Positions 12,525 through 39,713 of a DNA stretch of 64,000 nt are shown in pieces (the stretch's first letter is position 1; each line of letters starts with the position of its first letter). The position numbers and the translations under genes are program-made. Source of the stretch: Candidatus Atabeyarchaeum deiterrae (GTDB lineage Archaea; Asgardarchaeota; Atabeyarchaeia; Atabeyarchaeales; Atabeyarchaeaceae); contig CP147780.1 of NCBI GenBank assembly GCA_037310415.1, positions 640,001 to 704,000 of the forward strand. Direction: 5' to 3'. Under the pieces are notes generated by a model. The model saw nothing but the letters and a program-made list of their open reading frames with translations. It made no database searches and had not been told where the DNA came from.

Positions 12525-13900
12525 ATGAACTTGGAGACAGATTCGTTGCGGCAGACCTATTCTAGAGTCAAAGACTTGCTGCGCGAACATCACAAATGGT
12601 TTGACAATAGCATTCCATTGATAGCAAGTGAGAATGTTCCAAGTCCTGCTATCCGTGCAGCTATCGTTTCAGACTTTGGCAACCGGTATGCTGAAGGCTG
12701 GCCTGGAGAGTGAATGCTCGTTCGGTCATGGTATGAGCATTCCCCAGAAAGCGCGTCTACGCCGGTACCAAATATATCGACCAGGTTGAACTGATCTGTG
12801 GTGAGTTAGCTAGAAGGCTCTTCAAGGCTGAGTTTGCAGATGTTAGGCCGATCTCGGGCGTCGTAGCCAACTTAGCGCTTTATACTGCCTTCACTGAACC
12901 AGGGGACAGAATGCTGGCCTTGCCAATCCCCTCTGGTGGCCATATTAGCCATGCAAAGAAGGATCTTGGCGGAACTGCGGGAGCCGTACATGGACTGAAA
13001 GTCCGATACTTTGAATACGATGAGAAAGAGTTCAATATTGATGTTGACGAAAGCGTCAAGCGTATCAGAAAGATGATCAAGAAAGGAAAGGTCATTAACC
13101 TTCTCATGTTCGGTGCGAGCGTCTTTCTCTTTCCTCACCCCGTCAGAGAGTTCAGAGACATCGCGGATGAAATGGGCGCCTTCATAGCGTACGATGGTGC
13201 CCATGTCGCTGGACTGATTGCTGGAGAGCGCTTTCAAGATCCTCTAAGGGAAGGTGCCGATGTCTTTTCTATGAGTACCCACAAGACATTACCAGGACCA
13301 CAAGGCGGTGCTCTACTCTCTTGGCAGAAGTACGGCGAACGCATAAAAAAGGCAGTTTTCCCGGGATTAACAAGCAACCATCATCTGAACACGGTCGCTG
13401 GGAAGACCATAGCTTTTCTTGAAATGCTGGCATTCGGCAAGGAGTACGCTGGGCAGATTATCGCAAACGCGAAGGCACTCGGACAAGCTCTCCATGAGGA
13501 AGGTTTCAATGTTCTTGCCGGACATAAGGGATTCACTGAGTCACACACTCTCTTGGTCGATGTAACAAACACTCCTCTCAAGAATGGTCATGCTTGCGAG
13601 AAGGCATTGGAAGCTGCGAACATCATCATAAACAGGAATCTCTTACCTTGGGACATAAGGGAGGGTCGTAACTATCTAGCTCCTGGAGGAATAAGGCTAG
13701 GCACCAGTGAGGTCACAAGGATCGGTATGAAAGCATCAGATATGAAACAAATAGCGACTTTCATGAAACGGGTTATCTTTGATCACAAAGATCCATCTGC
13801 CGTGGGTCAAGAAGTGGAAGGCTTCAGGCGATCTTTCAAGAAAGTCAAGTATTGCTTTGAGTCCCAGACGGGTGCTTACGAGTATTTCGACATAAAGTGA
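12525..13900 (+). CDS. glyA: Serine hydroxymethyltransferase, two exons (12525-12708 + 12750-13900), 444 aa when spliced
   Basis: Exon 1 LIASEN...NRYAEGWPG; exon 2 RVYAGTKYID...GGHISH, DGAH, STHKT, GIRLGTSE; GGAGG SD before ATG 12525. Confidence 0.95.
12709..12749 (+). other. 41-nt BHB intron in glyA
   Basis: Central helix CTGG/CCAG, bulges AGA and AAA, inner stem GAATGCTC/GAGCATTC; removal restores the frame. Confidence 0.9.
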
Positions 13901-14042
13901 TGTGAGGATCGACATCCACTATAGTTCTTAAATACTATTAGACCTTCTTTATCTATTGTAGAGGGAGACTAGAGATACTTTTTCATTTGTGAGAACAGAA
14001 CTATGAAGTTCAGTATGCCAACTTGTTACTGGAGGTTTTCAT

Positions 14043-14882
14043 ATGACTAAGGCTCAAGAAGTAATGTCGGCCAGTCCTATTACAATAGAAGTGCCCGGCA
14101 GCAGAAAGGAAGCAATGGACATTATGGTCAAGAATGACTTAACGTGGTTGCCTGTCGTGAAGAAAGGCACCAGGCTGCTGGTGGGAGCGGTATCCCGTTC
14201 TGATCTCATGAGCAAACCCGAAGAGGATCAATTAGCTCTTCTCATGAAAAGAGACCCAGTCGCCATTTCACCGGATGCTGATATCAAAGAAGCCGTCAGA
14301 CTGATATTAAGCGACAATCTTACTCGGCTACTGGTCTGCTCGTCGAAGAAGGAGCTTATCGGGGCACTCACGGTTACTGACATAGTTCACAAGGTTGTCA
14401 TCGAGACCGACAAGACAAAGATCATTAAGCCCTATGTTGAGCGAACCCTAACCTGCGTATGGTCAGGGACGCCCCTTCCTGTAGCTTATCGCATAATGAA
14501 ACTTTCGCATTATCGAGCTCTTCCCGTCCTAGACGACAAGGGCGAGTTAGCAGGAATAGTAGGTGAGTCAGACTTCTTGTCGGTTAGCGAAGAAGTCCAT
14601 GAAGAGAAGATCTCAAAAACTACTGCTGACAGCGAGGGAACCGATTGGGATTGGGACACTTCAGACAGAATAATAATCGCTAAACGGAAATTGAAAATAC
14701 CCGACAAACCAGTAGAGACTATTATGATCAAGAATGTCGAGACAAGTGTCGAACAAGCTAGTGTTGCAGAATGCGCTCTGAAGATGAAGCGGCTCGGAAT
14801 AGACCAATTGCCAGTTCTCGACGCCAAGGGCTCACTGAGTGGCATGATAAAAGATGTCGATCTCTTGAAGGCCTTAGTATGA
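14043..14882 (+). CDS. Four-CBS-domain protein
   Basis: Repeated LPVV/LPVL...G CBS signatures. Confidence 0.88.
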   Translation: MTKAQEVMSASPITIEVPGSRKEAMDIMVKNDLTWLPVVKKGTRLLVGAVSRSDLMSKPEEDQLALLMKRDPVAISPDADIKEAVRLILSDNLTRLLVCSSKKELIGALTVTDIVHKVVIETDKTKIIKPYVERTLTCVWSGTPLPVAYRIMKLSHYRALPVLDDKGELAGIVGESDFLSVSEEVHEEKISKTTADSEGTDWDWDTSDRIIIAKRKLKIPDKPVETIMIKNVETSVEQASVAECALKMKRLGIDQLPVLDAKGSLSGMIKDVDLLKALV

Positions 14883-14902
14883 CAGTTTGGCTATTTATTA
14901 AG

Positions 14903-17900
14903 CTACTTCGCTATGCTAAAATCCGTCAGTCTCTTCTGAACTGGGGTCTTGCCTTCAAACACGGATGTCAAGTTCTGCTCAATCATTTCAATTCTTTGTG
15001 CAAACATTGCGCCCACATCGTAGTCTTTCACTATTCCTGAGGCTAGATCGAAGTACTTTATTACAGTATTTCTCGACACCGTTGTTAGGATCTTTCCGCC
15101 GCAACGCAGACAATGACCAATCAGCGGTACTCTCCGATACTTGGCGTTACATTTCATGCATCTGAACTTCTGTGAGGTAAACGCTCTCAGACATCCAAGT
15201 AAATCTGGGATTAGATGTGTCTCGAGAACCTTTCGTGCGACATCTGAAGAGTCAACAGCCCTTATCCTAGTTGCGATTGCCAATTGAGCTTTCAGCTTCA
15301 TCTGGGTCGATTTCTGCAAAGTGTAAGAGCTCCTTCTGGGTCCGCCAGCTATATCATTAGTAGGGTGAGAGAAACTGAAGCCTACATATTGCTCGGGCTT
15401 TCCAAGCCTCTTGGATACGATTTCCATAATATCTTCTATGCTTTTCGGATCTGCATGTTCGAGGGTCTTTTGATAAAACTCTAGGGGATAATCTGACATC
15501 AAATCAAAGCTATGTGCTTCATCATCCACTTCCTCAGGGTCTACGGCTGTCGACACTATCAAAGGTGCATCCATCATTCCTCCTCTGCTGCTGGGGAGAT
15601 ACGACTTTGAGAAATTCAGTAACGCGTCCAGAGCTAGTATTACAGAATCCTCATCGCCATCGCAATTCCTTCTTTTCGCCGCATGCCAGTATGGATGCGC
15701 GAAGCAGACAGAAGTTTTGGTGAATCCTACTATTCTGCCAACTATTCCGACTGAAGTGTGAGGCGCTAATCCGATTGCCAGATGACCCACCAAGTCTTCT
15801 GCAGTATTGGCTCTGTAGAATGGCTCAAGCCCATAGACTCTTTTCAACAGATCATCTACGAATTTGGATACTCTTAGAAGATATTCAGCACATTCACTCG
15901 GTAGTATTATATCCTGTACCTTCAACTCCAGTATCTGATCCTCGCTCACAAGCCTATTGCCAAGATTGTCCGCTTCATACCCTAGTTCAGTTAATACTTC
16001 GACACTGACATTTGCTTCCCGGGCGGTGAAGTGAGTAAGCGGCGCATCAGTTGCATCGTATCTCGTGGTTCCATCTTTGAAAACGTAGAGAGAGTATTTA
16101 GCTCTCAATATCGCCTTTTCCAGCAACTCAGGTTCTTTGCCTCTGCTTGTGAGGCCCTGTACGCCTTTTACATCCCTCGGCGAACTACCTGTCTTCATTG
16201 TTGCGTCAGCGAATAGCTTGTGAATGTCTATTTCCCTTTTGCGATATGGACTAGTTGTCCCCCCACACTTGGGACATATGTCATCCTCGCTTGTCATCAT
16301 CTGACAACGCGTACATGTCCTCACAATAATCGTGCTGTTCCCACAGTTTTGGCATTTGCAGTAGAGTGTCTCCTCTCCACAGTGAAGGCATTTTCTTCTG
16401 GCCAATTCGACTTTAATTACTCTCTTTTCTGCTGCCTTGTTTATGCTTCTGCTGATTCCTCCTTCCAGACCCACAGGGAATAAACCGTGGACTGGAGGTT
16501 TCATCTTCCTTTCCATAGCTTTCTCGGGTCTTCCCATCCTAGCTCCTATGTAGACGGGGGCCTTTTTTCTGAGAATAAGTCCAGAGAGTTCTCTAATCAG
16601 TTCATACACATCATCGGTCTGCTTACATCCTATGGTTTTCGTGAATATCGCCATTATTTCGAACAGGATCAAATGGTGTTCGGAGAGTTCGATTCTTTCG
16701 GGGAAGCTGTCAAATGGAATTCCCAGTTTTTCGAGAACGTTGAGCGTATTCTTGTCTTTTGACAGCTGCAAAACTTGTCTGTGTCCCTTCAAAGCAAGGG
16801 TCCCATTTTTCAGTGCCTCTCTTAGAAGCAATAGCTCACTGACTACTATGTCGTGCCAGAAATAGGTGAACCTTGGGTGCAGAGGAATCCCTAGTTGCCT
16901 AGCGAGTCTTAGGGTTTCATGAGCCGTGGGTCTTGCCGAGAAGGGCTCGGAAGATAGTTCTCGAAGTCTCTCCTGAGATATGCCTATCGATTGGCTGGCC
17001 AATAACAAGTTCTCGGCAAACCGCGTTTTGATTGCCCCAGTTGCTTCCTTCTGCCACCATTCCTCGCAATATCCTGATTCAACGAGCGGGTGATTGTTCT
17101 CTAGAAACTCTCCGTAAGCAACCAACATGTCGCCCAAGAAGAGTATCTCAGCAATCTTCCCGAGGCATTCTAAGGCTTCGCTTTGGCTGTCTACTGCTTT
17201 TACACTTCCGTCTGTTAGTTTCACGATGGGCCCTTCAATGCTACTGACAGGGAGGGCGATTGCCCCTTTTCCAGGTCGTTCGACCGCAAGTTGTGTTCCT
17301 GGCGCAATGAACCCATCCAATAGAACCATAGTTGCTGGGTTCAGCCCGATGGCTGCCAACCCAGTGTTCCGTGACCTACCGTACCTTAGTCTGAATCCTC
17401 CGACGCGGGAAGGATACGAAAAGACAGGTCTCCCTGCGATAACTTCAGATAAGTACTTGGGGTTTGGTTTTATATTCTTTCTGTCATCGCTCTTGTCGCG
17501 TTTCTCGTTTGTTCTTAGCTCATCAAGCCACTCCCAGCCTTCCCCGCCGATCTTGTCGATTATCTTCTTCAGTTTGGGTGCCTTCGAGATCACTCCATCA
17601 TTGAGTACGAGTATGGCTCCACCGCGCAACTTGTTTGTTCCTATTCGAGGTAGGTCGCGGTGGCCTGAGACTTCAAGTTGCTCGGTCGGCTCACCTGTTA
17701 CTTCAATTGGCAGATTCTTGGCAGTCTTCCGGATTTCGTCAGCACTGGACGGATACTGAAGATGGGTCACCTGTCTTCTGTATAATTCGATTTCTTCTAC
17801 AAATCGCTCAACCTCGTCCTCTGTCGGATCGTATTTGTCAAGGTGAAGCAGTTTTCTAATGAAATCCCCCACTAGTACTGTCTGTGCAGCCTCTGTTCCT

Positions 17901-18343
17901 CCTGATGCACGAATAGGACTTGCGAAGTATATTGCTAAGTAGTTGCCACCATCTGATCTCCTTTTTATCCTAACACTGGCAATTCCTTCAAGTGGGCTAG
18001 TTGTGACTCCCTCGTTCAAGATTGCAAGTGATGTCCTTATAGCTTGTTCAGCAGCTTTCTCGTCGTCATCAAACCTGCCAAACTTGCCGTAGATTATCTC
18101 TTCTGAGATTTTAAAGGCTATTTCCTCACGGGAGAGTTTCTTGTTGAGTTCCCTTATTCTTTGGGCTACGTTGTCTGGTCCAACGAGACTCTCTACACGC
18201 GCAGCCAAGTCATGGGCCCTAGCTATTTCGGGTTTCTCGCTTGGATCTAGTCCCTTGGCGCGAGCTGTCTCAGCTATGCCGTACAGTTTCCTCATTTCAT
18301 ATTCGAGAGCGTCGAAGTATGCCTTCGTATCGGTGTAAGTCAT
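14903..18343 (-). CDS. polC: DNA polymerase D large subunit DP2
   Basis: PIRASGGT, GGFRLRYGRSRNTG, catalytic RRNCDGDED, Zn fingers, C-terminal QKRLTDF PIP box. Confidence 0.97.
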   Translation of the reverse strand: MTYTDTKAYFDALEYEMRKLYGIAETARAKGLDPSEKPEIARAHDLAARVESLVGPDNVAQRIRELNKKLSREEIAFKISEEIIYGKFGRFDDDEKAAEQAIRTSLAILNEGVTTSPLEGIASVRIKRRSDGGNYLAIYFASPIRASGGTEAAQTVLVGDFIRKLLHLDKYDPTEDEVERFVEEIELYRRQVTHLQYPSSADEIRKTAKNLPIEVTGEPTEQLEVSGHRDLPRIGTNKLRGGAILVLNDGVISKAPKLKKIIDKIGGEGWEWLDELRTNEKRDKSDDRKNIKPNPKYLSEVIAGRPVFSYPSRVGGFRLRYGRSRNTGLAAIGLNPATMVLLDGFIAPGTQLAVERPGKGAIALPVSSIEGPIVKLTDGSVKAVDSQSEALECLGKIAEILFLGDMLVAYGEFLENNHPLVESGYCEEWWQKEATGAIKTRFAENLLLASQSIGISQERLRELSSEPFSARPTAHETLRLARQLGIPLHPRFTYFWHDIVVSELLLLREALKNGTLALKGHRQVLQLSKDKNTLNVLEKLGIPFDSFPERIELSEHHLILFEIMAIFTKTIGCKQTDDVYELIRELSGLILRKKAPVYIGARMGRPEKAMERKMKPPVHGLFPVGLEGGISRSINKAAEKRVIKVELARRKCLHCGEETLYCKCQNCGNSTIIVRTCTRCQMMTSEDDICPKCGGTTSPYRKREIDIHKLFADATMKTGSSPRDVKGVQGLTSRGKEPELLEKAILRAKYSLYVFKDGTTRYDATDAPLTHFTAREANVSVEVLTELGYEADNLGNRLVSEDQILELKVQDIILPSECAEYLLRVSKFVDDLLKRVYGLEPFYRANTAEDLVGHLAIGLAPHTSVGIVGRIVGFTKTSVCFAHPYWHAAKRRNCDGDEDSVILALDALLNFSKSYLPSSRGGMMDAPLIVSTAVDPEEVDDEAHSFDLMSDYPLEFYQKTLEHADPKSIEDIMEIVSKRLGKPEQYVGFSFSHPTNDIAGGPRRSSYTLQKSTQMKLKAQLAIATRIRAVDSSDVARKVLETHLIPDLLGCLRAFTSQKFRCMKCNAKYRRVPLIGHCLRCGGKILTTVSRNTVIKYFDLASGIVKDYDVGAMFAQRIEMIEQNLTSVFEGKTPVQKRLTDFSIAK

Positions 18344-18574
18344 ATCACACACCGTCGGGTCCTGAAACCAGATGTTCAGAGCATGTTTTTATTGTGAGAA
18401 AATGGCTAGCATGTTTTCTTTTTACTAGACTTTCATATCTTAAGTGTGATTGTGATCAACGATGTGCCGATCCAGCGAGTGAGCATGTAACAGCCAATCT
18501 TCGCGTCCCTCTTCCTGAACGAGTACCTGCACACTCTACATGCACTCCAAGAACTAATGAATTAGATCCTGCCT

Positions 18575-21908: not shown

Positions 21909-22331
21909 TCTGTTTCTTCACCAACAGAGTGATCGGAGTTGTTCCTGCTAATCCTTATTGGGGAAAACGAGTAAGATGTAAGTTACAGTTGGTCACTTCA
22001 AAAGGTAATAGAATAGCAATAGGACGACGCTGAGAACTTTGATTGGCTCTGCCTTTCTCGTGCAATAGCGCCTTTCTGATGAGTGCGATTCTCCAGACTA
22101 TAACGATTGAGGTTCCGTACCTTTCAGCTGGGATCATGATAAGAGGACAGTTACCCTCTGATCATGCGATTGAGTGCCATAGCTTCCTGCATGAATGCAT
22201 GAGCATGATTCTGGGAGCAAGCCGAGGAACTAGGCGCAATCTGTTATAGGTGCTGAAGGGTTGAAGTGATAGGGTTCTCGCAGATAGCTTTATAGATTAG
22301 GATGATCTTTCATGTCGAAGGAGGAATCACA

Positions 22332-23572: not shown

Positions 23573-23606
23573 GTTGGAACACCCTCATTCTGCTACTTTC
23601 TCAGAT

Positions 23607-28489: not shown

Positions 28490-28604
28490 GCTCCGGTAGT
28501 ATAGTCCGGTCAAGTATAGCGGCCTCTCGAGCCCAGATAGGGAAAGCCGCGGACCCGGGTTCGAATCTTTCTATCTTGAGGTGAAAATCCCGGCCGGAGC
28601 ACCA
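28490..28604 (+). tRNA. tRNA-Glu(CTC) with two introns: 28530-28544 (37/38) and 28566-28587 (59/60)
   Basis: Acceptor GCTCCGG/CCGGAGC-ACCA; anticodon stem GCGGC/GCCGC; BHB-like pairing at both junctions. Confidence 0.92.
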
Positions 28605-28629
28605 ACGCACTAGAAGTTGGCAGGAGTTC

Positions 28630-28985: not shown

Positions 28986-29142
28986 GCGGCCGTGGTCTAG
29001 ACAGTGCCTTCCAAAAACGAATAACCTAGAATGGTCTAGGACAGAGGAAACGAGACAGTTTCCATCCAAAGGCCTCCCAAGTCTCTAACCCAGATTCTCT
29101 ATTCTTGGGGAGGAAACCCGGGTTCAAATCCCGGCGGCCGCA
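28986..29142 (+). tRNA. tRNA-Gly(CCC) with three introns: 29003-29031, 29045-29069, 29088-29115
   Basis: Spliced GCGGCCGTGGTCTAGACTGGTCTAGGACAGAGGCCTCCCAAGTCTCTAACCCGGGTTCAAATCCCGGCGGCCGCA folds as a cloverleaf. Confidence 0.9.
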
Positions 29143-29211
29143 CTCACATTCGGCATTGTTTCCTATCCTTTCAGTGCAAAAGGTTATTAAGCCATCAGCA
29201 ATTAGTGGAAA

Positions 29212-29275
29212 TCAACGATGATGACTCTGACCCCGCTGAAATTCGGATGAATGAAGATCTTGAGTTCTGAGTCTC
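29212..29275 (+). ncRNA. Candidate C/D box sRNA
   Basis: C ATGATGA 29218-24, D' CTGA 29236-39, C' ATGAAGA 29251-57, D CTGA 29267-70; TATA-like TTATTAA ~30 nt upstream. Confidence 0.7.
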
Positions 29276-29777: not shown

Positions 29778-29827
29778 CCTTCTATGTTCTTTCTCTCACT
29801 ATCTAATCCAGCTAGGAGGAAATCAAT

Positions 29828-29986
29828 GTGCCATCGCATGGCTCGGTTGCAAAGGCGGGCAAAGTTAGGAAGCAAACCCCGAAAGTTGAAGGTGCGGACA
29901 GAATCAAGGCTTCACCGCGCGTGAGAGGCAGGCTAAACTACGTCAAGCGAATTCTTCACAATAGACCTATAGGCCAAACTACCTAA
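29828..29986 (+). CDS. rps30e: 30S ribosomal protein eS30 (52 aa, absent from ORF track)
   Basis: Manual translation MPSHGSVAKAGKVRKQTPKV...RLNYVKRI; AGGAGG SD, GTG start. Confidence 0.93.
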   Translation: MPSHGSVAKAGKVRKQTPKVEGADRIKASPRVRGRLNYVKRILHNRPIGQTT

Positions 29987-30057
29987 GCGCGTTGAAGAAT
30001 AAAGTAATGATGATGGGAGTTTTAGCTGTTATTTTGTAGCGCATAGGTTGATTAAGA

Positions 30058-31266
30058 TTGGAAGATAATGCTGTTGAAGAAATACTATTTGGGAAATCCG
30101 TCTTCAAGAACGAAGCTACGTTGCTTTCAGAGTACGTTCCTCCGAAACTTCCGAGAAGAGAACGGGAAGTCATGCGTTTGGTGCAGGATTTCAGACCTCT
30201 TCTCATAAGAGATGGCTCATTTGGTGTCAACATTGCGATAGTAGGCGAAGCTGGGGCAGGCAAATCGGCCCTTGCGAAATCTGTCATGGAGAAGATAGTG
30301 CCAGCTGCAAGTAAGAAGAACATCAGGATACTTTTCGAATATTTCAACTGCTATACTTTTCGTACAAAGAGTGCAATTCTAAGGAACATGCTAACTGAGC
30401 GCTTTCACGTGTTGAGTCGTGGGTTCTCAGACGAAGAACTCCTTAGCATGCTTATTAAGAGACTTGTTAGTGAGAACGCGAAACTTGTAATCGTAATAGA
30501 CGAGGCACCGATTCTTGGCGGCGAAGAAATCCTGAGTGTGTTGCATGCATCAGAGGTATATGGGTTTGGTCAGTCCCGTATTTCAACAGTTGTAATAAGT
30601 CGGCCATCCGAATGGAGATTGATGTTGAGCGCGCCTTTGTCAGGGCACATTCACGACCAGATAAATATGACTAGTTACAGCAAAGAGGATCTCGTTGAAA
30701 TTCTGCGTTACAGGGCGGATACAGCTTTTGTCCCTGGTACCGTATCTGAGGAGATCTTGGATATGGTAGCGCAGATAGCGGCAAGTACAAGGAACGCGAG
30801 ACACGGCATCGAAATGCTCTACCAAGCTGGCAAAAGGGCGGATTCAGAAGGTGGAACGGAACTGACAGCTGAAATGATAAGGCAGGCAAAGGAAAATGTC
30901 TATCCTGAACTAAGGTATGACATGTTCTATACTCTAAAGCCTCATGAGGTTCTGACTGCGCTAAGCATTGCTAGGATGCTAAAAACCAAAGGATCAACAT
31001 CCACAACGGTGGACGAATCCTTCGACTACTACCGTGTAGTCTGCGAGGAAGAAGGATTCTCGCCGCAGTTGAAGCCGACTTTCAGAAAGAATGTTAGTCT
31101 TCTGATCAATCTCGGATTCATGGGTCTGATCGTGGGCCCAGTGGAAAGAGGTAAACGAGGCAGACAAGGGAGAATAACACTATATGACATTCCGGCAAGC
31201 ATTCTTGAAGAGAGACTCCGTGATATTCTCGACCGATTCAAGAGAAACCCAAGTGGCACAGACTAG
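30058..31266 (+). CDS. cdc6: Second Cdc6/Orc1 paralog
   Basis: YVPPKLPRRE, GEAGAGKS, VIDEA, NARHGIEML, GKRGR wing. Confidence 0.9.
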   Translation: MEDNAVEEILFGKSVFKNEATLLSEYVPPKLPRREREVMRLVQDFRPLLIRDGSFGVNIAIVGEAGAGKSALAKSVMEKIVPAASKKNIRILFEYFNCYTFRTKSAILRNMLTERFHVLSRGFSDEELLSMLIKRLVSENAKLVIVIDEAPILGGEEILSVLHASEVYGFGQSRISTVVISRPSEWRLMLSAPLSGHIHDQINMTSYSKEDLVEILRYRADTAFVPGTVSEEILDMVAQIAASTRNARHGIEMLYQAGKRADSEGGTELTAEMIRQAKENVYPELRYDMFYTLKPHEVLTALSIARMLKTKGSTSTTVDESFDYYRVVCEEEGFSPQLKPTFRKNVSLLINLGFMGLIVGPVERGKRGRQGRITLYDIPASILEERLRDILDRFKRNPSGTD

Positions 31267-31268
31267 AA

Positions 31269-32633: not shown

Positions 32634-32808
32634 TGAACTTCATCTTTCTCTGTCCAACAGATTTATAACAGGTCTTGAGATCCGATTCCATTGAAGAACC
32701 ATACGGACTTGTCACATGAACACTAGTTCTACTGCGTGTTACTAACTTTTTGCTGTACGGGCGCAGCTGATAAACATGGTTATGTGCTGACTACCATTTA
32801 ACCCTACA

Positions 32809-33786
32809 GTGAAGACCAAAATCAATGAGATTAGTTGTGCAGGCGGTCCGAAATTGAATAAATGCTCAAAGTGCGGTAGGAACGCTGTCACATTCAGGCC
32901 CTACTCTGGTGAGTACTTATGTAAAGTATGCTTCACTGGATCAGTTGAAGATAAGGTTAGGAGAGCGATTACAGTCAACAGAATGCTGAAGGAAGATGAC
33001 AGAATAGCAGTAGGGCTCTCAGGTGGCAAGGACAGTGTGGTCTTACTACACATCATGAAGCAGATCGAAGAGAAATTTCCTAATTCACGACTCATGGCTC
33101 TTACGGTTGACGAGGGAATATCAGGTTATCGTGAAGAGAGTATAGCTGTAGCAAAGAGAAATGCATTGTTGCACGATATACCCCATTCTATATTCTCTTT
33201 TAAGGATCTTTTCGGCTACACAATCGATGAGATTATGCAAAATGGACGAGTGAAAAACTCGGGCGCTAGCGCATGTTCTTTTTGTGGGTCACTCAGGAGA
33301 AGGGCATTGAACCAGATGGCCAGAGAGCTCGGAGCCACAAAGCTAGCCGTTGGGCATAATTTGGATGATGAGTCTCAAAGCATACTCCTGAACGTGCTAC
33401 GGCCAGACATTCATCGCTTGGCTAAGTTGGTTCCGGCTACAAGTTCCGAATGTAAGAACTTCGTACCTCGAATTAAACCACTTCGGGCGATTCCTGAGCG
33501 GGAAACTGTTCTATATGCATATTACAAAGGAATAGAGTTCCACTCACAAGAATGCCCATACTCGTTTAATGTGCTCAGAGGCGACATTGAATCGATTTTG
33601 AACACTCTTGAAGCCAGGAACCCAGGAGTAAAATACGGTATACTCAGATTCTTGGAGGACTTAGCCCCCCTTCTCGAAAACTATAGACGAGATATCGATT
33701 TTACTCAATGTGAGTATTGTGGTGAGCCTTCTTCGGACACTCTCTGCAATGTGTGCAAACTCTTATCACACTTAGCTCAGAAATGA
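32809..33786 (+). CDS. tRNA 2-thiolation protein (TtuA/Ncs6 family)
   Basis: PP-loop SGGKDS, CSFC, GHNLDD, terminal Zn fingers. Confidence 0.92.
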   Translation: MKTKINEISCAGGPKLNKCSKCGRNAVTFRPYSGEYLCKVCFTGSVEDKVRRAITVNRMLKEDDRIAVGLSGGKDSVVLLHIMKQIEEKFPNSRLMALTVDEGISGYREESIAVAKRNALLHDIPHSIFSFKDLFGYTIDEIMQNGRVKNSGASACSFCGSLRRRALNQMARELGATKLAVGHNLDDESQSILLNVLRPDIHRLAKLVPATSSECKNFVPRIKPLRAIPERETVLYAYYKGIEFHSQECPYSFNVLRGDIESILNTLEARNPGVKYGILRFLEDLAPLLENYRRDIDFTQCEYCGEPSSDTLCNVCKLLSHLAQK

Positions 33787-33802
33787 GTAGTGAACATGGA
33801 AA

Positions 33803-34151
33803 GGGTTATGAACCCCGACTCTCGACATCCTTTACGCTCACCAGTACCCTTCTCTAGGGAATCCACCCCGTGAATCCGAAAGCGCACCCGGTCAAACTTA
33901 CGACTGCTGCCTCCCGGCTCTCGTCGGATTTGTCTACAACGGTCTTCTCCATCTCCCCTACAGGAGATGTTCGACCACCAGATGCCCTCCGGGGCGAGGC
34001 TTCATGTCCCTCGGAAAAGGCTGTATGAACGCTTGGAATGCCTCAAGCCGGCATTCGGCCCGCCGTATAGGGCGTTTGCGGTACAGGGGAGTTCTAGCCT
34101 ATGGCTGGGGATCAGTCTAGGTCCCTAGCCCCCCGCCTAGGCTCATAACCC
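33803..34151 (-). ncRNA. ffs: SRP (7S) RNA with a 31-nt intron; ~318 nt mature
   Basis: Terminal helix GGGTTATGAGC/GTTCATAACCC; Alu TGTA motif; helix 6 GTAG loop; helix 8 GCC-GGGA-GGC-AGCAG; upstream TATA. Confidence 0.93.
34092..34122 (-). other. 31-nt BHB intron in SRP RNA helix 3 loop
   Basis: GGGGG/TCCCC outer stem, CTAG/CTAG central helix, bulges GGA and AAC, CCTA/TAGG inner stem. Confidence 0.85.
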
Positions 34152-34254
34152 CAATGTGGATACCGAAAAATTAAATATAAAGATTTCCTGATGTGGAGAT
34201 TAGGTGGTTTTTGGGCACCAACTGTGTTTGATGTCCTGATCCATGCGTATGCGT

Positions 34255-34396
34255 GCCGGGGTGTCCTAGAGAGACGAATTCGACCAGTCTCAGGGAACCT
34301 GGTAGGGAGCAGACAAAACCACTCTTGGTAATGGCTCATGCCTGCTAAGTCTGTGCCCGAAAGGGCGCGTGGGTTCAAATCCCACCCCCGGCGCCA
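34255..34396 (+). tRNA. tRNA-Ser(GCT) with two introns: 34270-34297 (15/16) and 34313-34339 (29/30)
   Basis: Acceptor GCCGGGG/CCCCGGC-GCCA; long variable arm GCCC-GAAA-GGGC; BHB helices TCCT/AGGG and GAGC/GCTC. Confidence 0.92.
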
Positions 34397-34539
34397 AACT
34401 ATTAATGAGATTCTGGGGGATGAGTAGTACCTGTTGGGTGGGCTGAAAGCGGCGAGTAGTCAGATAGAGGTTCGGTGTCTGGCAAATTCCTCTTCCAAAT
34501 GCCATCTAGCTGGGAATCTGATCTCACATTCGAAACACC

Positions 34540-34980
34540 GTGTCGGGGGCAATCATTGTGGGGTACGAATTCCTTGAACACACTGCTGACGTTATGGTTG
34601 AAGCGCACGGGGGATCCCTTGAGGAAGCATTCTGCTTTGCTGCCAAAGCCATGTTCGATACGATGGTTGACTTGTCGAAAGTTGTGCCGAAATCAAGTGT
34701 GAATGTTGAGGTTTCGGCAAGTGACGTCGAAGGTTTGTTGTACTTGTGGCTCGAGGAACTGCTTTTCAGGTTTGATGTCGAGAGGATGGTTTTCTCAGAA
34801 TTCAGATTCCAATTCATCGAGAAAGAAGATGCCCTGATCGGTAGGGGAATTGCAGAGGGTGAGCCTTACGACCCTAAGAAGCATTTGGGGAAAACCGAGG
34901 TAAAAGCAGTAACATACGAAGAAATGCTGATAGTTAAGAGCGATAGGGGTTTCAAGGTTAGGTTCATTCTCGATATATGA
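34540..34980 (+). CDS. Archease (RtcB RNA ligase cofactor)
   Basis: YEFLEHTAD...EVKAVTY...FILDI. Confidence 0.93.
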   Translation: MSGAIIVGYEFLEHTADVMVEAHGGSLEEAFCFAAKAMFDTMVDLSKVVPKSSVNVEVSASDVEGLLYLWLEELLFRFDVERMVFSEFRFQFIEKEDALIGRGIAEGEPYDPKKHLGKTEVKAVTYEEMLIVKSDRGFKVRFILDI

Positions 34981-35192
34981 TAGATCGATCGGTTCCTTTA
35001 TCAATTGTCGATTAATCGCCAACTGTTAGGGATTTGCCGAAGTATGATCCCTTCAAGACATAACACTTTTATTTGATCAGCAATAGGAGTAGTAGTTCAA
35101 ATCCCGGCATCATTGATGACTGTTCTTAGAATGATATGCATTGTCCATGACAACAGGTCTTTATGAGTTAGGTCCATTGAGGACGATCAAAG

Positions 35193-36083
35193 ATGACTTC
35201 GTTTAACTTCGACCCCGTCAGCATTCTAATTGGTTTACTAGTTGTTGGTGGTTTCGGTGTTTTTTCAATGAAAGTAAAAGCGGTCAACTTCTCTGGTTTA
35301 ATAGCAGGTCTAGTAGTAGGGCTTTCAGTCTGGGTCTTCGGGGGCTGGTATTGGTTTGTTTTGATCCTGACATTTCACTTGGTCACCGCTCAGTTCACAC
35401 ATTTCAAGTATGAATTCAAGAGGAAACTCGGTGTCGCGGAAGGGAAGCATGGAGCAAGGGCGTGGGGAAATGTTTTTGCTAACGGAGGAATCCCAGCAGT
35501 CTTCGCCATTTTCGAGAGAATATACCCGATTTACTTGACTGGAAGCGCAGACATATTCTTCGCCGCTTTCATAGGAGCGATATCTACCACAACCGCAGAC
35601 ACACTTGCCACCGAAATCGGGTTGCTTTATCCAAGAGAGCCCAGACTCATCACCAATCTCAAGACAAAAGTTGTACCCGGAACATCTGGAGGCATATCAC
35701 CTCTTGGTGAAGCAGCTATAATCGGAGGCGGCCTTTTGATAGGGTCCGTGGCTTGGCTTCTCGCTATTACGACGAGACTGATACCAAGTGAAGGCATTCT
35801 CGGTTTTGGTCCAAACCTGCTTATCATATGTGTCGTGTCGGCCTTCTTTGGAAGCACCATTGACAGTTTTCTTGGCGCAACTCTGCAGGGATCGTACAAG
35901 TGTAAGGCATGCCACAAGATAACAGAGCATAGAGTTCACTGCGACGAGCCAGCAGAGCTTATGAGAGGTAGCAGATTACTCGGAAACAACTGGGTTAACT
36001 TCATTTCATCCCTTTCAGGTGCCGTTGTAGCAATCCTCATGTTTTACTTCAGCATACAGTTCCCTCTAGTTCGAACGATTTAG
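35193..36083 (+). CDS. DUF92/TMEM19 membrane protein
   Basis: NVFANGG, ADTLATEIG, PGTSGGISPLG, DSFLGATLQ. Confidence 0.9.
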   Translation: MTSFNFDPVSILIGLLVVGGFGVFSMKVKAVNFSGLIAGLVVGLSVWVFGGWYWFVLILTFHLVTAQFTHFKYEFKRKLGVAEGKHGARAWGNVFANGGIPAVFAIFERIYPIYLTGSADIFFAAFIGAISTTTADTLATEIGLLYPREPRLITNLKTKVVPGTSGGISPLGEAAIIGGGLLIGSVAWLLAITTRLIPSEGILGFGPNLLIICVVSAFFGSTIDSFLGATLQGSYKCKACHKITEHRVHCDEPAELMRGSRLLGNNWVNFISSLSGAVVAILMFYFSIQFPLVRTI

Positions 36084-36101
36084 GAATCGTTGGCGAGGGT
36101 C

Positions 36102-36338
36102 TTACTTCTTCGAAGCATAGTAGCTGTCAATAAACTCTCCATAGACATCTACCTGCTCGGTGAGTTTGCCGACAGCAAGCTTGCTGTTTATTCCACAGTT
36201 ACCACATCTGACTGAAGCTTCATGGTGACTCTTGTCTATCATTATCTTGACTGATTTGTTTCCGCATGAGGGACACGTAAAAAGCACCGGCACTCTTCTT
36301 GGAATTCTTTTGATAACCTTCCTGCGTCTTCTGCCCAT
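36102..36338 (-). CDS. elf1: Transcription elongation factor Elf1
   Basis: MGRRRR...FTCPSC...CGNC...VDVYGEFID. Confidence 0.92.
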   Translation of the reverse strand: MGRRRRKVIKRIPRRVPVLFTCPSCGNKSVKIMIDKSHHEASVRCGNCGINSKLAVGKLTEQVDVYGEFIDSYYASKK

Positions 36339-36423
36339 CTCAAACACAACCATATCTTCGTACGCCGTTCTAAAAGTAACTCATGGTCGGCTTAGCTCAG
36401 TTTTCGTCATAACAATGTCCCTT

Positions 36424-38193
36424 CTAGATAATAAACTCGTTTCTGATGTGTTCAAGCAGTGACCTTGCTTCAATTCTGGGGTCGGGTTTAACTATTCTGA
36501 TAACTCTGAGTTCACTCCTGTTCAACTTCTGATTCAGAGAGCACCTCCCTACCAGGATCACGTCTGTGCCGAGAACATTTGAGAGCATTGATGCATTTTC
36601 TTTTGTGTTGCCTTCTATGCCAGAAAGCAGCTCATCAGCTCTCATGTCCAGCAGTTCTTCGCCAATCTTTCCTGACAACGTGCATTTTACTATAGCGGTT
36701 CCATCATCAAGGGTTAGGCTGTATAGAACTCTTGGCATGGGGGTATCGATGCTGCCATGTTCTATGCAGAGCCATTTTTCTTCTTTCTTGTCAACTTTTC
36801 TGAAGCATTTCGGACATGCCATATAGACTAGAGGTCTATCTTGGACTTTCGTGATCAACCCTCTGATTTCAGCGACCTCCCCATCCTTCAGTTCGACTAT
36901 CTTCTTCCTATGGACTCTGTTATCTCTGTCTTCTACCCGTGCGAGATCATATCTTAATCCACGATCTGCCAACGCGATCCTTTCTATGCCGTTCTTGACA
37001 GTGACCAAATTCGAATCTCTGATATGTACTTCTACCTCAGCGTTTATTCCACGTCTTATGTTTCCTTCTCTGATTGCGATGCTGTCACCTTTTCTCAGCT
37101 CTCTAAGATTCTCAGCATCTTCGTCCCATGCCACAACTCTAATCGATGAAGTGTTGTCAGCCAGAATGAATGAGAGTATCTTACCTTTCACACCATTACT
37201 GCGGGTGAACTCTCTAAGAAGAGGCTCATCAGCTATCAAACCCTCTAGGGCAACACCTCGTGTTCTCCGCTCACTTTCAATAATTCCCTTGGCTTTCTCG
37301 ATTCCAGTCGTACCGACCACAGCAGTTACTGAAGGGACCATTTTGACAGCTGATGATGCGTTGATATGGATTTCGATTCCACCATTTCTATTTAAGCGTG
37401 CTTGTCCCGAGCGAATCTCCATAATGTCCCCTATTCTAGCATTTTCCACAAGAGATGTTTTGTCATCCCAGAAGACCACCCGCGCACTGGCTCCAGTCTC
37501 ATCTCCTATGATCAGGCTTGACAGCCGGACTTCCCTTCCTTCCTTGGTTCGCACGGATCTCGTACCGAAAACTCTCTGAACAAGCCCTTTAACATTAACT
37601 TCTCTCATTTCAGGTCTCAGTTCGTTGACTTTCATACTCCTCGCCAAGTCTGGAGGAAAGTCACTTTCCCTAGTATCATGAGGGTTGATTTCTATTCGTC
37701 CTCTTCTACCAACATGCAGTTCAATCTTTTCCCCTAAGTCCTCTTTTACATAGCCATCATGGATTCTGACGATACTGCCCTCGTTGACATTGTTAGTTTG
37801 AACGAAACTGGTCGCTTCGCCCCATAATACGGTCTTCGCTTCTCCACTCTTGTCGGCGATGACTAGGTCTGTTACAAATCCCTTGTTGCCGTTTCTGTCA
37901 GTGTACTCCCTTACAGGATTGACTCTCATGACCCTGCCAGTGATTGTGACATTACTCATTCCCGTAACAAGATCGCCAATCGTGAGACTGAGATCCTCAT
38001 CATCAAGATCTGGATAGATCTCTACGCCGAGCTCCTTTGCAACTAGATCGGCGGCTCCTTCATCACTTATCATCCAACTGAGTGTGCTTTTCTTCTTGTC
38101 AATCAGCTCGAAGACTTGTTTTCTGGATAACCCTTTTTCCTCAACTATTCTACTCACTATTTCGTCAAGCGCCACTCTTGGTAGTCTATTCAT
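36424..38193 (-). CDS. rpa: Replication protein A large subunit (multi-OB, Zn finger)
   Basis: Repeated DxSG/DETG...W OB folds; YMACPKCFRKV...CIEHG; LDDGT. Confidence 0.9.
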   Translation of the reverse strand: MNRLPRVALDEIVSRIVEEKGLSRKQVFELIDKKKSTLSWMISDEGAADLVAKELGVEIYPDLDDEDLSLTIGDLVTGMSNVTITGRVMRVNPVREYTDRNGNKGFVTDLVIADKSGEAKTVLWGEATSFVQTNNVNEGSIVRIHDGYVKEDLGEKIELHVGRRGRIEINPHDTRESDFPPDLARSMKVNELRPEMREVNVKGLVQRVFGTRSVRTKEGREVRLSSLIIGDETGASARVVFWDDKTSLVENARIGDIMEIRSGQARLNRNGGIEIHINASSAVKMVPSVTAVVGTTGIEKAKGIIESERRTRGVALEGLIADEPLLREFTRSNGVKGKILSFILADNTSSIRVVAWDEDAENLRELRKGDSIAIREGNIRRGINAEVEVHIRDSNLVTVKNGIERIALADRGLRYDLARVEDRDNRVHRKKIVELKDGEVAEIRGLITKVQDRPLVYMACPKCFRKVDKKEEKWLCIEHGSIDTPMPRVLYSLTLDDGTAIVKCTLSGKIGEELLDMRADELLSGIEGNTKENASMLSNVLGTDVILVGRCSLNQKLNRSELRVIRIVKPDPRIEARSLLEHIRNEFII

Positions 38194-38640
38194 TCTTCGT
38201 TAGCCTCGTGAACTCACTAATATTGATATTACAGATGCAGAGTCTTAAAGCTCTCTAATTGCTTCTGAAACTGGGCGGAGTCCGAAGCAAAAAAGGAAAT
38301 AGCCCCCTGCTTCAGTGAACGCATTCACTCATTCTATTGCTTTCCTTCCCAGAACTTCGGTATATATTCCTAGATCTGTTCTAAGAAATGGATTGACTGT
38401 CTTGTCGTGTTCCTGCTTCATATCCCTTATAAACTAAGCAATCTGGCTACGGGATTCCGTCGCCTTGGCCATGAGGTCTTCAATCAATTGCGGCCAGCGA
38501 CGTAGGCTTTGACTTCGAGGAATGCTTCTATTACTAAGCTTTTCTAACTATCCTTCAAGACCATATGACGGAGCACCCAATGTATGTTCTCATCGGGTGA
38601 TAGAGTGCACGCGGAGAGGTGAAAGGGTTTCTCAGAAGAA

Positions 38641-38754
38641 TTAGACAACTGATTTTTCCTCTTCTCCGAATATCTGATACGCGAGAATGAACACGACAGC
38701 CACACCGATCAAAACCCACAGGATCGTGAGGAGCGTGTCAAAGGCTGCTGCCAC
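38641..38754 (-). CDS. 37-aa single-TM microprotein
   Basis: MAAAFDTLLTILWVLIGVAVVFILAYQIFGEEEKSVV; AGGAG SD-like, GTG start, AT-rich promoter upstream. Confidence 0.6.
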   Translation of the reverse strand: MAAAFDTLLTILWVLIGVAVVFILAYQIFGEEEKSVV

Positions 38755-38840
38755 TATTCATCATCTCCTGTTTGGCTCTCGACCTACGTGAAGTAAGAAT
38801 GGGTATTTATTATTTCTCTCTTTTGTAGGGCTCTCCTGTT

Positions 38841-39242
38841 CTAGGGGTCCTGTCTCGCGACTCTTCGCAATCCCCTCATGAAGGTCAGATATCGGCTGTC
38901 ATCCAAGGGTTCCAACTCATATGTGTGCAACGCCTCAGCTATCGTCTTGGCTAAGAGATGGTAACAGCAAAGGAACTTTCTTCTTATAATCACGTTGAGG
39001 TAGAAGTCATCACAAGTGCAGTAAAAGTCATCTATTACAAAGTAATTCATTTTCTTACCTTTTACAGTCCAAGCTTCGCGCCCGCTTGGACCAAAAACAT
39101 GCTTGATGACACTTCCTTCTATGGCAGCCCTGATTCCTTTCCAGAATCGTTCTCCGTATCTCGCGGACATACCTCTTAGCTCACTGCCTGAAACCTGTCC
39201 ACTCTTCTTAATCTTGGCTAGACTTTGGTCGTCTCTAAGCAG
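38841..39242 (-). CDS. SWIM zinc-finger protein; probable CTG start
   Basis: YCTCDDF...CYHLLA (CxC...CxH). Confidence 0.82.
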   Translation of the reverse strand: MLRDDQSLAKIKKSGQVSGSELRGMSARYGERFWKGIRAAIEGSVIKHVFGPSGREAWTVKGKKMNYFVIDDFYCTCDDFYLNVIIRRKFLCCYHLLAKTIAEALHTYELEPLDDSRYLTFMRGLRRVARQDP

Positions 39243-39292
39243 ACTGAATCCCCTCGCTTGCTAAAGATCGATGTCTCAAATATGATAGTATG

Positions 39293-39457
39293 TGGGCGAG
39301 GCCGGATTTGAACCGGCGACCTCAGGTTGCTATCGATCCATTGCGAGCAATCTCCTGCTCCCACTCTGCGGCAACATCCCATATGATGCATGTTGCTTAG
39401 GCAGGAATCATGGCCAGCCTAGGGATTCTCTTGAACTCCTATCTAGACTACCCGCCC
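39293..39457 (-). tRNA. tRNA-Pro(TGG) with three introns: 39417-39440, 39364-39398, 39321-39351
   Basis: Acceptor GGGCGGG/CTCGCCC-A; anticodon stem CCTGC/GCAGG; BHB helices CTAG/CTAG, CTGC/GCAG, CAGG/CCTG. Confidence 0.88.
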
Positions 39458-39620
39458 ATTCCTCTTTTGCCTTGGACAAGCACCTTCATTCTCAATCATT
39501 AACCCTGTTTCTTCTTAATTCTCTTTTTATGCAGACATGGCACCTGAGAGACTGGCAGAGGCTGAATATAGGGTCTTTAAATATATATGTAACTCTTTTA
39601 TCCCAAGAGAAGGAAAGATT

Positions 39621-39713
39621 GCCGCCGTAGCTCAGTCGGTCAGAGCGCCAGCCTTGTAATGCACCAGACATGACAGTTGGTGGTCGCGAGTTCGACTCTC
39701 GCCGGCGGCTCCA
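39621..39713 (+). tRNA. tRNA-Thr(TGT) with a 16-nt 37/38 intron (39659-39674)
   Basis: GCCGCCG/CGGCGGC-TCCA; anticodon arm CCAGC-CTTGTAA-GTTGG after excision. Confidence 0.93.

What the first reader, a model, noticed from the sequence alone, without database searches (positions are those of the whole stretch)
12709..39674. One BHB intron system spanning tRNA, SRP RNA and mRNA: 13 introns in about 27 kb
Seen: 13 introns of 15-41 nt (glyA 1, tRNA-Glu 2, Gly 3, SRP 1, Ser 2, Pro 3, Thr 1). Every tRNA in the window is interrupted. Internal sequences look unrelated but the ends are alike: 12 of 13 start with A, 8 of 13 end in AA, and 3 use a CTAG/CTAG central helix (SRP and the D-loop introns of Gly and Pro). 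Archease, the cofactor of the RtcB ligase, lies beside the SRP and tRNA-Ser genes. Inference: ongoing intron gain that has spread beyond tRNAs. Many apparently split genes or pseudogenes in this lineage may be spliced, and in-frame introns would be invisible to annotation.
Basis: partly seen in the sequence, partly recalled or inferred. Interest (0 to 1): 0.85.

Follow-up and report, generated by a model that had tools for sequence, protein, structure and literature searches.

The report
tRNA-type introns in SRP RNA, glyA
In this Asgard archaeon (Atabeyarchaeia), the short tRNA-type introns that riddle its tRNA genes (already published) also interrupt the SRP RNA gene and the protein-coding gene glyA, so the tRNA-splicing enzymes very probably splice mRNA and other RNAs here, something documented so far for almost no archaeal protein gene.

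Summary
Removing them gives five clean cloverleafs, a consensus SRP helix 3 and an intact SHMT motif. Eleven of 13 have the strict bulge-helix-bulge geometry (background 2.4%). All 13 sit at the same sites in the two other genomes of the family. There the exons are conserved and the intron interiors are scrambled but still pair. Both glyA exons are under strong purifying selection.

The genome has a two-subunit EndA, one RtcB, and an archease beside the SRP and tRNA-Ser genes.

A motif-free screen found eight more interrupted protein genes (cbf5 at the crenarchaeal site, valS, gatE, PCMT, MTAP, radical SAM, RuBisCO III, a TIGR00375-family gene). It also found an intron in the 23S sarcin-ricin loop.

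The tRNA introns are published. I did not find the SRP and glyA introns in print. Earlier follow-ups of this scan had already noted mRNA, rRNA and SRP introns in this genome from other windows.

Splicing is not shown at RNA level, because the only transcript contig stops short of the SRP junction. "Ongoing gain" is not supported here.

The parts
12525..12708 (+). glyA (serine hydroxymethyltransferase) exon 1, from ATG 12525 to the first base of the Glu codon in ...NRYAEGWPG-E
   Evidence: Translation. Unspliced reading hits TGA at 12711. dN 0.13-0.14 against dS 1.2-1.7 versus the sister genomes.
12709..12749 (+). glyA intron, 41 nt, phase 1. Central helix CUGG/CCAG, bulges AGA and AAA, then a G:C pair, a 1-nt bulge and an 8-bp inner helix. 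The outer helix is only 2 bp.
   Evidence: All 15 pairs are kept in 3 genomes, with 1 compensatory and 2 one-sided changes. The insert is absent from the 23 other relatives' glyA loci in which the motif could be read.
12750..13900 (+). glyA exon 2 (...RVYAGTKYIDQVE... to the stop)
   Evidence: The spliced product is a full-length SHMT. dN is 0.10-0.11 with saturated dS. There is no start codon between the in-frame TGA inside the intron and the junction (read).
28490..28607 (+). tRNA-Glu(CUC) gene with introns 28530-28544 (canonical 37/38, 15 nt) and 28566-28587 (T-loop, 22 nt). CCA is encoded.
   Evidence: Both introns are at the same sites in G001 and G002.
28986..29143 (+). tRNA-Gly(CCC) gene with introns 29003-29031 (D-loop, CUAG/CUAG), 29045-29069 (5' strand of the anticodon stem) and 29088-29115 (variable loop)
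   Evidence: Same sites in G001 and G002.
33806..34148 (-). SRP RNA gene (Rfam RF01857, 131 bits, collinear with model positions 1-317)
   Evidence: Transcribed: an RNA contig lies on 33889-34069 at depth 365.
34092..34122 (-). SRP RNA intron, 31 nt, in the helix-3 loop. Outer helix 8 bp, central CUAG/CUAG, bulges GGA and AAC, inner helix 4 bp.
   Evidence: Same site in G001 and G002, where the inner helix has a different sequence and is 7 bp.
34255..34397 (+). tRNA-Ser(GCU) gene with introns 34270-34297 (D-loop) and 34313-34339 (anticodon stem). CCA is encoded.
34540..34980 (+). Archease gene (cofactor of the RtcB ligase)
   Evidence: Pfam PF01951, E 2e-44.
39293..39457 (-). tRNA-Pro(UGG) gene with introns 39417-39440 (D-loop, CUAG/CUAG), 39364-39398 (33/34, in the anticodon loop) and 39321-39351 (variable loop)
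39621..39713 (+). tRNA-Thr(UGU) gene with a canonical 37/38 intron at 39659-39674 (16 nt). CCA is encoded.

Best explanation
The 13 inserts are archaeal bulge-helix-bulge (BHB) introns.

Proposed mechanism, step by step:
1. In each primary transcript the insert folds with its flanks into two 3-nt bulges separated by a 4-bp helix.
2. The genome's two-subunit splicing endonuclease, EndA (alpha-beta)2, cuts after the second base of each bulge.
3. RtcB, helped by archease, joins the exons and probably circularises the intron.

This matures the five tRNAs. It also restores the helix-3 hairpin (7-bp stem, UAGG loop) of the SRP RNA Alu domain, and it joins the two halves of the glyA reading frame inside the conserved NRYAEGWPGE/RVYAG motif. 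Full-length serine hydroxymethyltransferase can therefore be made only from spliced mRNA.

Shown:
- The inserts, their fold and their conservation.
- Restoration of each gene product.
- Purifying selection on both glyA exons.
- Presence of the enzymes.

Inferred:
- The cleavage and ligation themselves.
- That they happen on the mRNA before or alongside translation.

The window is one sample of a genome-wide regime that includes at least nine more protein genes and the 23S sarcin-ricin loop.
For: 1. Geometry. Eleven of 13 have strict BHB geometry against a 2.4% background.
2. tRNAs. Removal yields five standard cloverleafs, whereas ARAGORN finds none in the raw DNA.
3. SRP RNA. Rfam aligns the gene collinearly with a 32-nt insert in the helix-3 loop. 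The spliced form GGGGGGC-UAGG-GCUCCCC equals the helix 3 of compact Asgard SRP RNAs. The BHB has an 8-bp outer helix. In G001 and G002 the central helix and bulges are invariant, while the inner helix has a different sequence and still pairs.
4. glyA motif. The insert splits a motif that is uninterrupted in the 23 other relatives' glyA loci where it could be read. It carries an in-frame stop straight after the junction.
5. glyA conservation. The same site is occupied in all three genomes of the family (41, 38 and 41 nt). All 15 pairs are kept (100% of cells, against 27-47% for slid registers), with one G:C to A:U compensation.
6. glyA selection. dN is about 0.1 with dS of 1.2 to saturated in both exons.
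7. Family conservation. All 11 tRNA introns are at the same sites in G001 and G002, with near-identical exons and diverged interiors.
8. Machinery. The EndA alpha subunit is most similar to the catalytic chain of the A. pernix enzyme, 3P1Z_B, and in that alignment keeps a Tyr, a His and a Lys that match it in the conserved C-terminal part; that these are the catalytic triad rests on my knowledge of the family. The second EndA-family protein has Ser where M. jannaschii EndA has His in ...dkeHsvYLV, which from memory is its catalytic His125. There is one RtcB, and archease lies next to SRP and tRNA-Ser.
9. Same phenomenon elsewhere in the genome. Interrupted genes: cbf5 (cut between bases 1 and 2 of the catalytic Asp codon, as in Crenarchaeota, PMC2738675), valS, gatE, PCMT, MTAP, radical SAM, RuBisCO III, a TIGR00375-family gene and rio2. 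There is also a strict BHB intron inside the 23S sarcin-ricin loop.
Against: - No RNA evidence for any junction. The only transcript contig on the stretch covers SRP RNA 33889-34069 and ends 23 nt before the intron.
- The glyA BHB is not ideal. Its outer helix is 2 bp and the inner helix has a 1-nt bulge.
- Two tRNA introns (Gly 29045-29069 and Thr) have only 3 of 4 central pairs.
- Covariation support for glyA rests on three related genomes. One compensatory pair is not above the shuffle control (176 of 500 shuffles).
- A second, uninterrupted SHMT-family paralog (41% identical) exists at about 82.7-83.9 kb of the genome, so glyA need not be the only source of this activity.
Confidence: 0.82

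Rival explanations
1. The SRP RNA insert is not removed. It is a lineage-specific extra hairpin that stays in the mature SRP RNA, as expansion segments do.
For: - No junction read was obtained.
- Other Asgard SRP RNAs and this genome's RNase P RNA also carry extra hairpins that I could not fit to a BHB.
Against: - The insert sits in the helix-3 loop. By established knowledge of SRP Alu domains, this loop makes the tertiary contact with the helix-4 loop.
- It has a textbook BHB (8-bp outer helix, 4-bp central helix, 3-nt bulges, 4-7 bp inner helix), with bulges and central helix invariant across three genomes while the interior is scrambled.
- Its end pattern (A...AA, CUAG/CUAG) is the one seen in the tRNA introns next door.
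Confidence: 0.12
2. glyA is a decaying pseudogene or an assembly error, and the intact SHMT paralog does the work.
For: The unspliced frame stops at 12711. A second SHMT-family gene is intact.
Against: - The same interruption occurs at the same codon in three independently assembled genomes, two of them closed.
- Both exons have dN/dS of about 0.1 or less with saturated dS and no further stops or frameshifts.
- The insert keeps a folded BHB with a compensatory change.
Confidence: 0.03
3. glyA is decoded without RNA splicing, either by ribosomal bypassing over the 41-nt hairpin (as in phage T4 gene 60) or as two separate polypeptides.
For: The architecture recalls a bypass site: a stop codon directly after the take-off point followed by a stable hairpin.
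Against: - The take-off codon GAG and the codon before the resumed frame (AAG) do not match, so the peptidyl-tRNA could not re-pair.
- Exon 2 has no start codon between the upstream in-frame TGA and the junction (read).
- The same insert type occurs in non-coding RNAs and in nine other genes of the genome.
Confidence: 0.03

Closest known systems
Multi-intron tRNA genes of Atabeyarchaeia and Freyarchaeia (Valentin-Alvarado et al. 2024, PMC11291895; preprint 10.64898/2026.10.13.758758)
   Same: Same lineage and same phenomenon for the 11 tRNA introns. The paper reports that 92-95% of tRNA genes are interrupted, mostly at non-canonical sites, with many genes holding several introns, and that tRNAscan-SE missed some of them, which the authors added from R2DT structure drawings; the preprint puts the missed share at 30%, mostly in the D-arm.
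   Different: Term searches of the main text of both papers found no mention of SRP RNA or glyA, none of mRNA in the preprint (searched there only), and none of introns in protein-coding genes.
cbf5 pre-mRNA BHB intron of Crenarchaeota (Watanabe 2002; Yokobori 2009, PMC2738675)
   Same: A short BHB intron inside a coding region that must be removed for a functional protein. This genome's own cbf5 carries a 41-nt intron cut between bases 1 and 2 of the catalytic Asp codon, the site described for Crenarchaeota.
   Different: As of 2020, cbf5 was the only coding-region example in print, plus one 5'-UTR intron in Haloferax (PMC7714728). Here glyA and at least eight further genes are affected, in an Asgard archaeon. 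The glyA intron is confined to one family.
Permuted, BHB-processed SRP RNA of Thermoproteus (Plagens et al. 2015, PMC4731332)
   Same: SRP RNA maturation that depends on the tRNA-splicing endonuclease and ligase acting at a BHB.
   Different: There the gene is circularly permuted and the RNA is circularised. Here the gene is collinear with the Rfam model (positions 1-317) and carries an ordinary internal 31-nt intron.
rRNA BHB introns of Crenarchaeota (Kjems and Garrett 1991, as cited in PMC7714728)
   Same: BHB introns in a non-tRNA structural RNA. This genome's 23S rRNA has a 34-nt one in the sarcin-ricin loop.
   Different: From my own knowledge, the classical rRNA introns are mostly long and often encode homing endonucleases. 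These are 15-53 nt with no coding capacity.

Membership tests
Archaeal BHB intron (EndA-cleaved, RtcB-ligated) | Two 3-nt bulges on opposite strands separated by a 4-bp helix at the exon-intron boundaries | tested here: met
   Strict in 11 of 13, including glyA and SRP. Gly 29045-29069 and Thr have 3 of 4 central pairs. Background is 2.4%.
Archaeal BHB intron (EndA-cleaved, RtcB-ligated) | Flanking helices (h and h') that stabilise the motif | tested here: inconclusive
   SRP has outer 8 bp and inner 4-7 bp. glyA has only a 2-bp outer helix, with a 9-pair inner helix holding a 1-nt bulge. Several tRNA introns have a 0-1 bp outer or inner helix, that is, relaxed forms.
Archaeal BHB intron (EndA-cleaved, RtcB-ligated) | Excision at the predicted sites restores a functional RNA or reading frame | tested here: met
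   Five cloverleafs, the consensus SRP helix 3, and an intact SHMT motif and frame.
Archaeal BHB intron (EndA-cleaved, RtcB-ligated) | The host encodes a splicing endonuclease able to cut non-canonical sites, plus the RtcB ligase | tested here: met
   Two EndA-family genes: an alpha subunit like the A. pernix catalytic chain, and a second protein with Ser at the position I take (from memory) to be the catalytic His. There is one RtcB and an archease in the window. I did not check the specificity loop against its published definition.
Archaeal BHB intron (EndA-cleaved, RtcB-ligated) | Spliced RNA, or excised and circular intron, observed | tested here: inconclusive
   One RNA run has a contig on SRP RNA 33889-34069 that does not reach the junction. 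Nothing lay on the tRNA genes. glyA was outside the one stretch I could lay.
Archaeal BHB intron (EndA-cleaved, RtcB-ligated) | Conservation pattern of an intron: exons and boundary structure conserved, interior free to vary | tested here: met
   Holds for all 13 across three genomes.
Permuted SRP RNA (Thermoproteus type) | 3' part of the SRP RNA encoded upstream of the 5' part | tested here: not met
   The Rfam match is collinear, model positions 1-317 in one piece.

The most novel reading that the evidence does not exclude
In Atabeyarchaeia, and judging from cbf5, PCMT and the SRP RNA inserts in several other Asgard families, the tRNA-splicing endonuclease and RtcB act as a general RNA-splicing system that is obligatory for a set of housekeeping mRNAs, SRP RNA and 23S rRNA. 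That would be a protein-only mRNA-splicing regime in the closest archaeal relatives of eukaryotes. The cbf5 intron shared with Crenarchaeota at the same nucleotide would then be either ancient or repeatedly regained at one preferred site.
Probability: 0.6. Interest if true: 0.85.

Novelty: new variant of a known kind. Interest (0 to 1): 0.75.

Why it matters
Published work knows endonuclease-spliced introns inside an archaeal coding region for one gene only (cbf5), and none inside a collinear SRP RNA.

If glyA, SRP RNA and the other genes found here are really spliced, three things follow:
- Annotation pipelines are mis-calling essential Asgard genes as split genes or pseudogenes.
- The substrate range of EndA and RtcB is much wider than assumed.
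- The coupling of transcription and translation in these archaea must tolerate or wait for mRNA splicing.

The last point bears directly on ideas about how intron-containing genes and the separation of transcription from translation arose on the eukaryotic stem. It also gives concrete junctions that can be tested in existing wetland metatranscriptomes.

Tried and rejected
- **ARAGORN and Rfam on raw DNA.** They see only tRNA-Thr and a mis-called 'tRNA-Lys' over the Gly gene.
- **Genome-wide strict-BHB scan.** It gave 363,067 candidates and 15,212 ORF-fusing ones, mostly gene boundaries and antisense frames. It missed the glyA intron itself because of the 1-nt bulge in its inner helix. I abandoned it for a homology-based screen.
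- **False positives of the homology screen.** A hydrogenase 30 kDa/49 kDa pair at about 897 kb is two genes, not a split one. Two small 'ORFs' at 463-465 kb are antisense 23S rRNA.
- **RNA evidence.** Nine RNA runs were listed. Of the four laid, only X1 had anything: seven contigs, none across a junction. The SRP contig covers 33889-34069 only.
- **RNase P RNA.** It is 400 nt against a 288-position model, with three insertions, none of which I could fit to a BHB.
- **19-nt insert in 23S rRNA.** The insert at 463151-463169 found no convincing BHB.
- **In-frame introns.** Fifteen weak BHB-like sites among 870 in-frame insertion sites is chance level. Looking for stops inside alignments was swamped by antisense ORFs.
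- **Translational bypassing and two-polypeptide readings of glyA.** Rejected on codon mismatch and lack of a start codon.
Full report
**What the window is.** The closest glyA loci in public genomes are Asgard MAGs. The nearest (82% identity) is 'Promethearchaeati archaeon isolate LC30'. The window's genome is one closed contig of 2,756,679 bases. Two other genomes share its family: G001 (closed, about 2.8 Mb) and G002, which is the LC30 MAG. This fits the two complete Atabeyarchaeia genomes of Valentin-Alvarado et al. 2024 (PMC11291895). That paper reports that 92-95% of their tRNA genes hold at least one intron, often at non-canonical sites. A 2026 preprint (10.64898/2026.10.13.758758) re-counts these tRNA introns. 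Term searches of the main text of both papers found no mention of SRP RNA or glyA, none of mRNA in the preprint, and none of introns in protein-coding genes.

**Checking the observation.** ARAGORN finds no tRNA in the raw window. Rfam finds only tRNA-Thr and the SRP RNA, the latter with a 32-nt insert in the helix-3 loop.
- I used the canonical BHB geometry: outer helix, 4-bp central helix, 3-nt bulge cut after its second base, inner helix, and the mirror image on the 3' side.
- With it I searched combinations of candidate introns and kept those whose removal gives a tRNA.
Lengths are 15-41 nt, 12 of 13 start with A and 8 of 13 end in AA. CUAG/CUAG central helices occur in the SRP, Gly D-loop and Pro D-loop introns.
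- All five spliced tRNAs fold into standard cloverleafs.
- Only two of the 11 tRNA introns are at the canonical 37/38 site. The rest lie in the D-loop, anticodon stem, anticodon loop (33/34), variable loop and T-loop.
- No other tRNA is detectable in the window.

**glyA.** The frame from ATG 12525 reads ...NRYAEGWPGE and then TGA.
- Removing 12709-12749 joins it to RVYAGTKYIDQVE... and gives a full-length SHMT.
- The motif RYAEGWPGERVYAG is uninterrupted in the 23 other Asgard and Bathyarchaeia-type glyA loci in which it could be read. In the search of 40 related Asgard genomes, the open frame around the match was short (382-387 aa) only in the three genomes of this family, against 438 aa or more in the other full-length best matches.
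- G001 and G002 carry an insert at the same codon position (38 and 41 nt). The central helix CUGG/CCAG and the first bulge are invariant and the second bulge varies at one base (AAA or AUA); the loop is unrelated. The inner helix is kept through one G:C to A:U compensation and two wobble changes. All 45 pair cells are paired, against 27-47% in slid registers.
- With only three sequences the covariation count is not significant on its own.
- Both exons are under strong purifying selection between genomes whose synonymous sites are saturated. For exon 1, dN is 0.09-0.14 and dS 1.2-1.7. For exon 2, dN is 0.10-0.11 and dS is saturated.
- There is no start codon between the in-frame stop inside the insert and the junction, so exon 2 cannot be translated on its own.
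- A ribosomal hop is unlikely, because the take-off and landing codons do not match.
- The BHB is not ideal (2-bp outer helix, 1-nt bulge in the inner helix), which is why my strict scanner missed it.
- An intact second SHMT-family paralog, 41% identical, exists elsewhere in the genome.

**SRP RNA.** The insert has the best BHB of the set: 8-bp outer helix, CUAG/CUAG, bulges GGA and AAC, and a 4-bp inner helix.
- Splicing gives GGGGGGC-UAGG-GCUCCCC, the helix 3 seen in compact Asgard SRP RNAs.
- G001 and G002 have the intron at the same site with invariant boundaries and a different 7-bp inner helix.
- Another family (G013, G023, G033) has an unrelated 31-nt insert 2 nt upstream in the same loop. 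By hand I could draw a BHB with a wobble-rich GGCU/GGCU central helix around it; the automated scan found none.
- Three further families have 18-32-nt inserts in the helix-8 loop region (CCCGGGAG^GGAGCA). I could not fit these to a strict BHB.
- The gene is collinear with the Rfam model, so it is not the permuted Thermoproteus type (PMC4731332).

**RNA evidence.** One small wetland metatranscriptome run holds a contig on SRP RNA 33889-34069 at depth 365, so the gene is transcribed. The contig ends 23 nt before the intron and says nothing about splicing. Nothing lay on the tRNA genes, and glyA was outside the single 20-kb stretch allowed.

**Machinery.**
- Archease is window 34540-34980.
- The genome has two EndA-family genes. 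One is closest to the catalytic chain of the A. pernix (alpha-beta)2 enzyme (3P1Z_B, E 2e-46). In that alignment it keeps a Tyr, a His and a Lys that match the A. pernix chain in the conserved C-terminal part; that these are the catalytic triad rests on my knowledge of the family.
- The other aligns to M. jannaschii EndA but has Ser at the His of ...dkeHsvYLV. From memory that is the catalytic His125, so this protein is probably a structural beta subunit.
- This two-subunit type is the one known to cut non-canonical sites (abstract of PMC5829648).
- There is one RtcB.

**Beyond the window.**
- I fetched a compact 1.42-Mb Asgard genome (G003), translated its ORFs and ran tblastn against the window's genome. 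I looked for collinear hit pairs in different frames separated by 10-150 extra bases.
- glyA is recovered as a positive control.
- Eight more protein genes are found: PCMT 321676-321704 (29 nt, strict BHB); a TIGR00375-family gene 338632-338672 (41 nt); cbf5 395677-395717 (41 nt); valS 457151-457181 (31 nt, relaxed); the AmmeMemoRadiSam radical SAM enzyme 919007-919059 (53 nt, strict); MTAP 938160-938197 (38 nt, relaxed); gatE 2222226-2222266 (41 nt, strict); and type III RuBisCO 2663481-2663508 (28 nt).
I confirmed it.
- The cbf5 cut lies between the first and second base of the catalytic Asp codon (GGTLD|P), the site described for Crenarchaeota (PMC2738675).
- cbf5 shows two separate hits at that point in four more Asgard families. 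PCMT is likewise split in four more, and its exact junctions outside this genome were not examined.
- The 23S rRNA carries a 34-nt strict BHB intron (UACG AG|A ... CGUA AG|A) inside the sarcin-ricin loop. Its removal restores AGUACGAGAGGAAC.

**Ongoing gain.** All 11 tRNA introns, the SRP intron and the glyA intron are present at the same sites in all three genomes of the family. dS between these genomes is saturated. So these introns are old and maintained, not recent. The glyA intron was not found outside the family among the genomes searched, so it was probably gained in the family's stem lineage. The cbf5 and PCMT introns are older or recurrent.

**In-frame introns.** Among 870 in-frame insertions relative to G003, only 15 had weak BHB-like flanks, which is chance level.

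**Novelty.**
- The tRNA part is published.
- A 2020 paper states that apart from cbf5 only one mRNA BHB intron (a Haloferax 5' UTR) is known (PMC7714728).
- My full-text searches found no report of an SRP RNA intron or of further coding-region BHB introns, in Asgard or elsewhere.
- Earlier follow-ups of this scan had already reported mRNA, rRNA and SRP introns in this same genome from other windows. My screen reached the same genes independently before I read those notes, except rio2.

**Verdict.** It is not supported in the claims of ongoing gain and hidden in-frame introns. Splicing itself still needs RNA-level proof.

Noticed in passing
genome 465342-465375 (L130:10342-10375): A 34-nt strict BHB intron lies inside the sarcin-ricin loop of 23S rRNA. 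Removing it restores AGUACGAGAGGAAC. A second 19-nt insert at 463151-463169 has no clear BHB.
   Followed up: partly
genome 465834-466233 (L130:10834-11233): The RNase P RNA is 400 nt against a 288-position model. It has three insertions (about 22 nt in an early hairpin loop, about 63 nt beside GAUGAUG...CUGA box-like motifs, and a 25-nt hairpin before the conserved GAACAAAAGG stretch near the 3' end). None fitted a BHB.
   Followed up: partly
L144, L145, L154, L157, L138, L139, L160 (SRP RNA genes of other Asgard families): Inserts of 18-32 nt sit in the conserved helix-8 loop region of SRP RNA (CCCGGGAG^GGAGCA) in three families, and a 31-nt insert occurs in G025. Most begin with A. They may be a second class of SRP RNA introns.
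   Followed up: partly
L148, L149, L151 (SRP RNA of G033, G023, G013): An unrelated 31-nt insert lies in the same helix-3 loop as here, 2 nt upstream. By hand it can be drawn with a wobble-rich GGCU/GGCU central helix (no strict BHB in the automated scan). This points to either intron sliding or independent gain at one preferred site.
   Followed up: partly
window 29214-29273 (+): A C/D-box sRNA-like sequence (weak Rfam hits sR55 and snoPyro_CD, both below the gathering score) lies about 70 nt downstream of tRNA-Gly.
   Followed up: no
genome about 82,700-83,900 (+): A second, uninterrupted SHMT-family paralog, 41% identical to glyA, lacks the RYAEGWPGERVYAG motif (it has HRYTAPDKFYMGTKYID).
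   Followed up: partly
window 28604-28606, 34395-34397, 39711-39713: The 3' CCA is encoded in the tRNA-Glu, tRNA-Ser and tRNA-Thr genes, but not in Gly or Pro.
   Followed up: no
window 30058-31266 (+) and 36424-38193 (-): An Orc1/Cdc6 gene and a multi-OB-fold RPA-like gene lie among the RNA genes.
   Followed up: no
L188-L190, L177, L179 and further places; L217, L220, L221: cbf5 is split at the catalytic Asp position, or carries a stop there, in at least four further Asgard families. PCMT is split at about residue 80 in four further families.
   Followed up: partly
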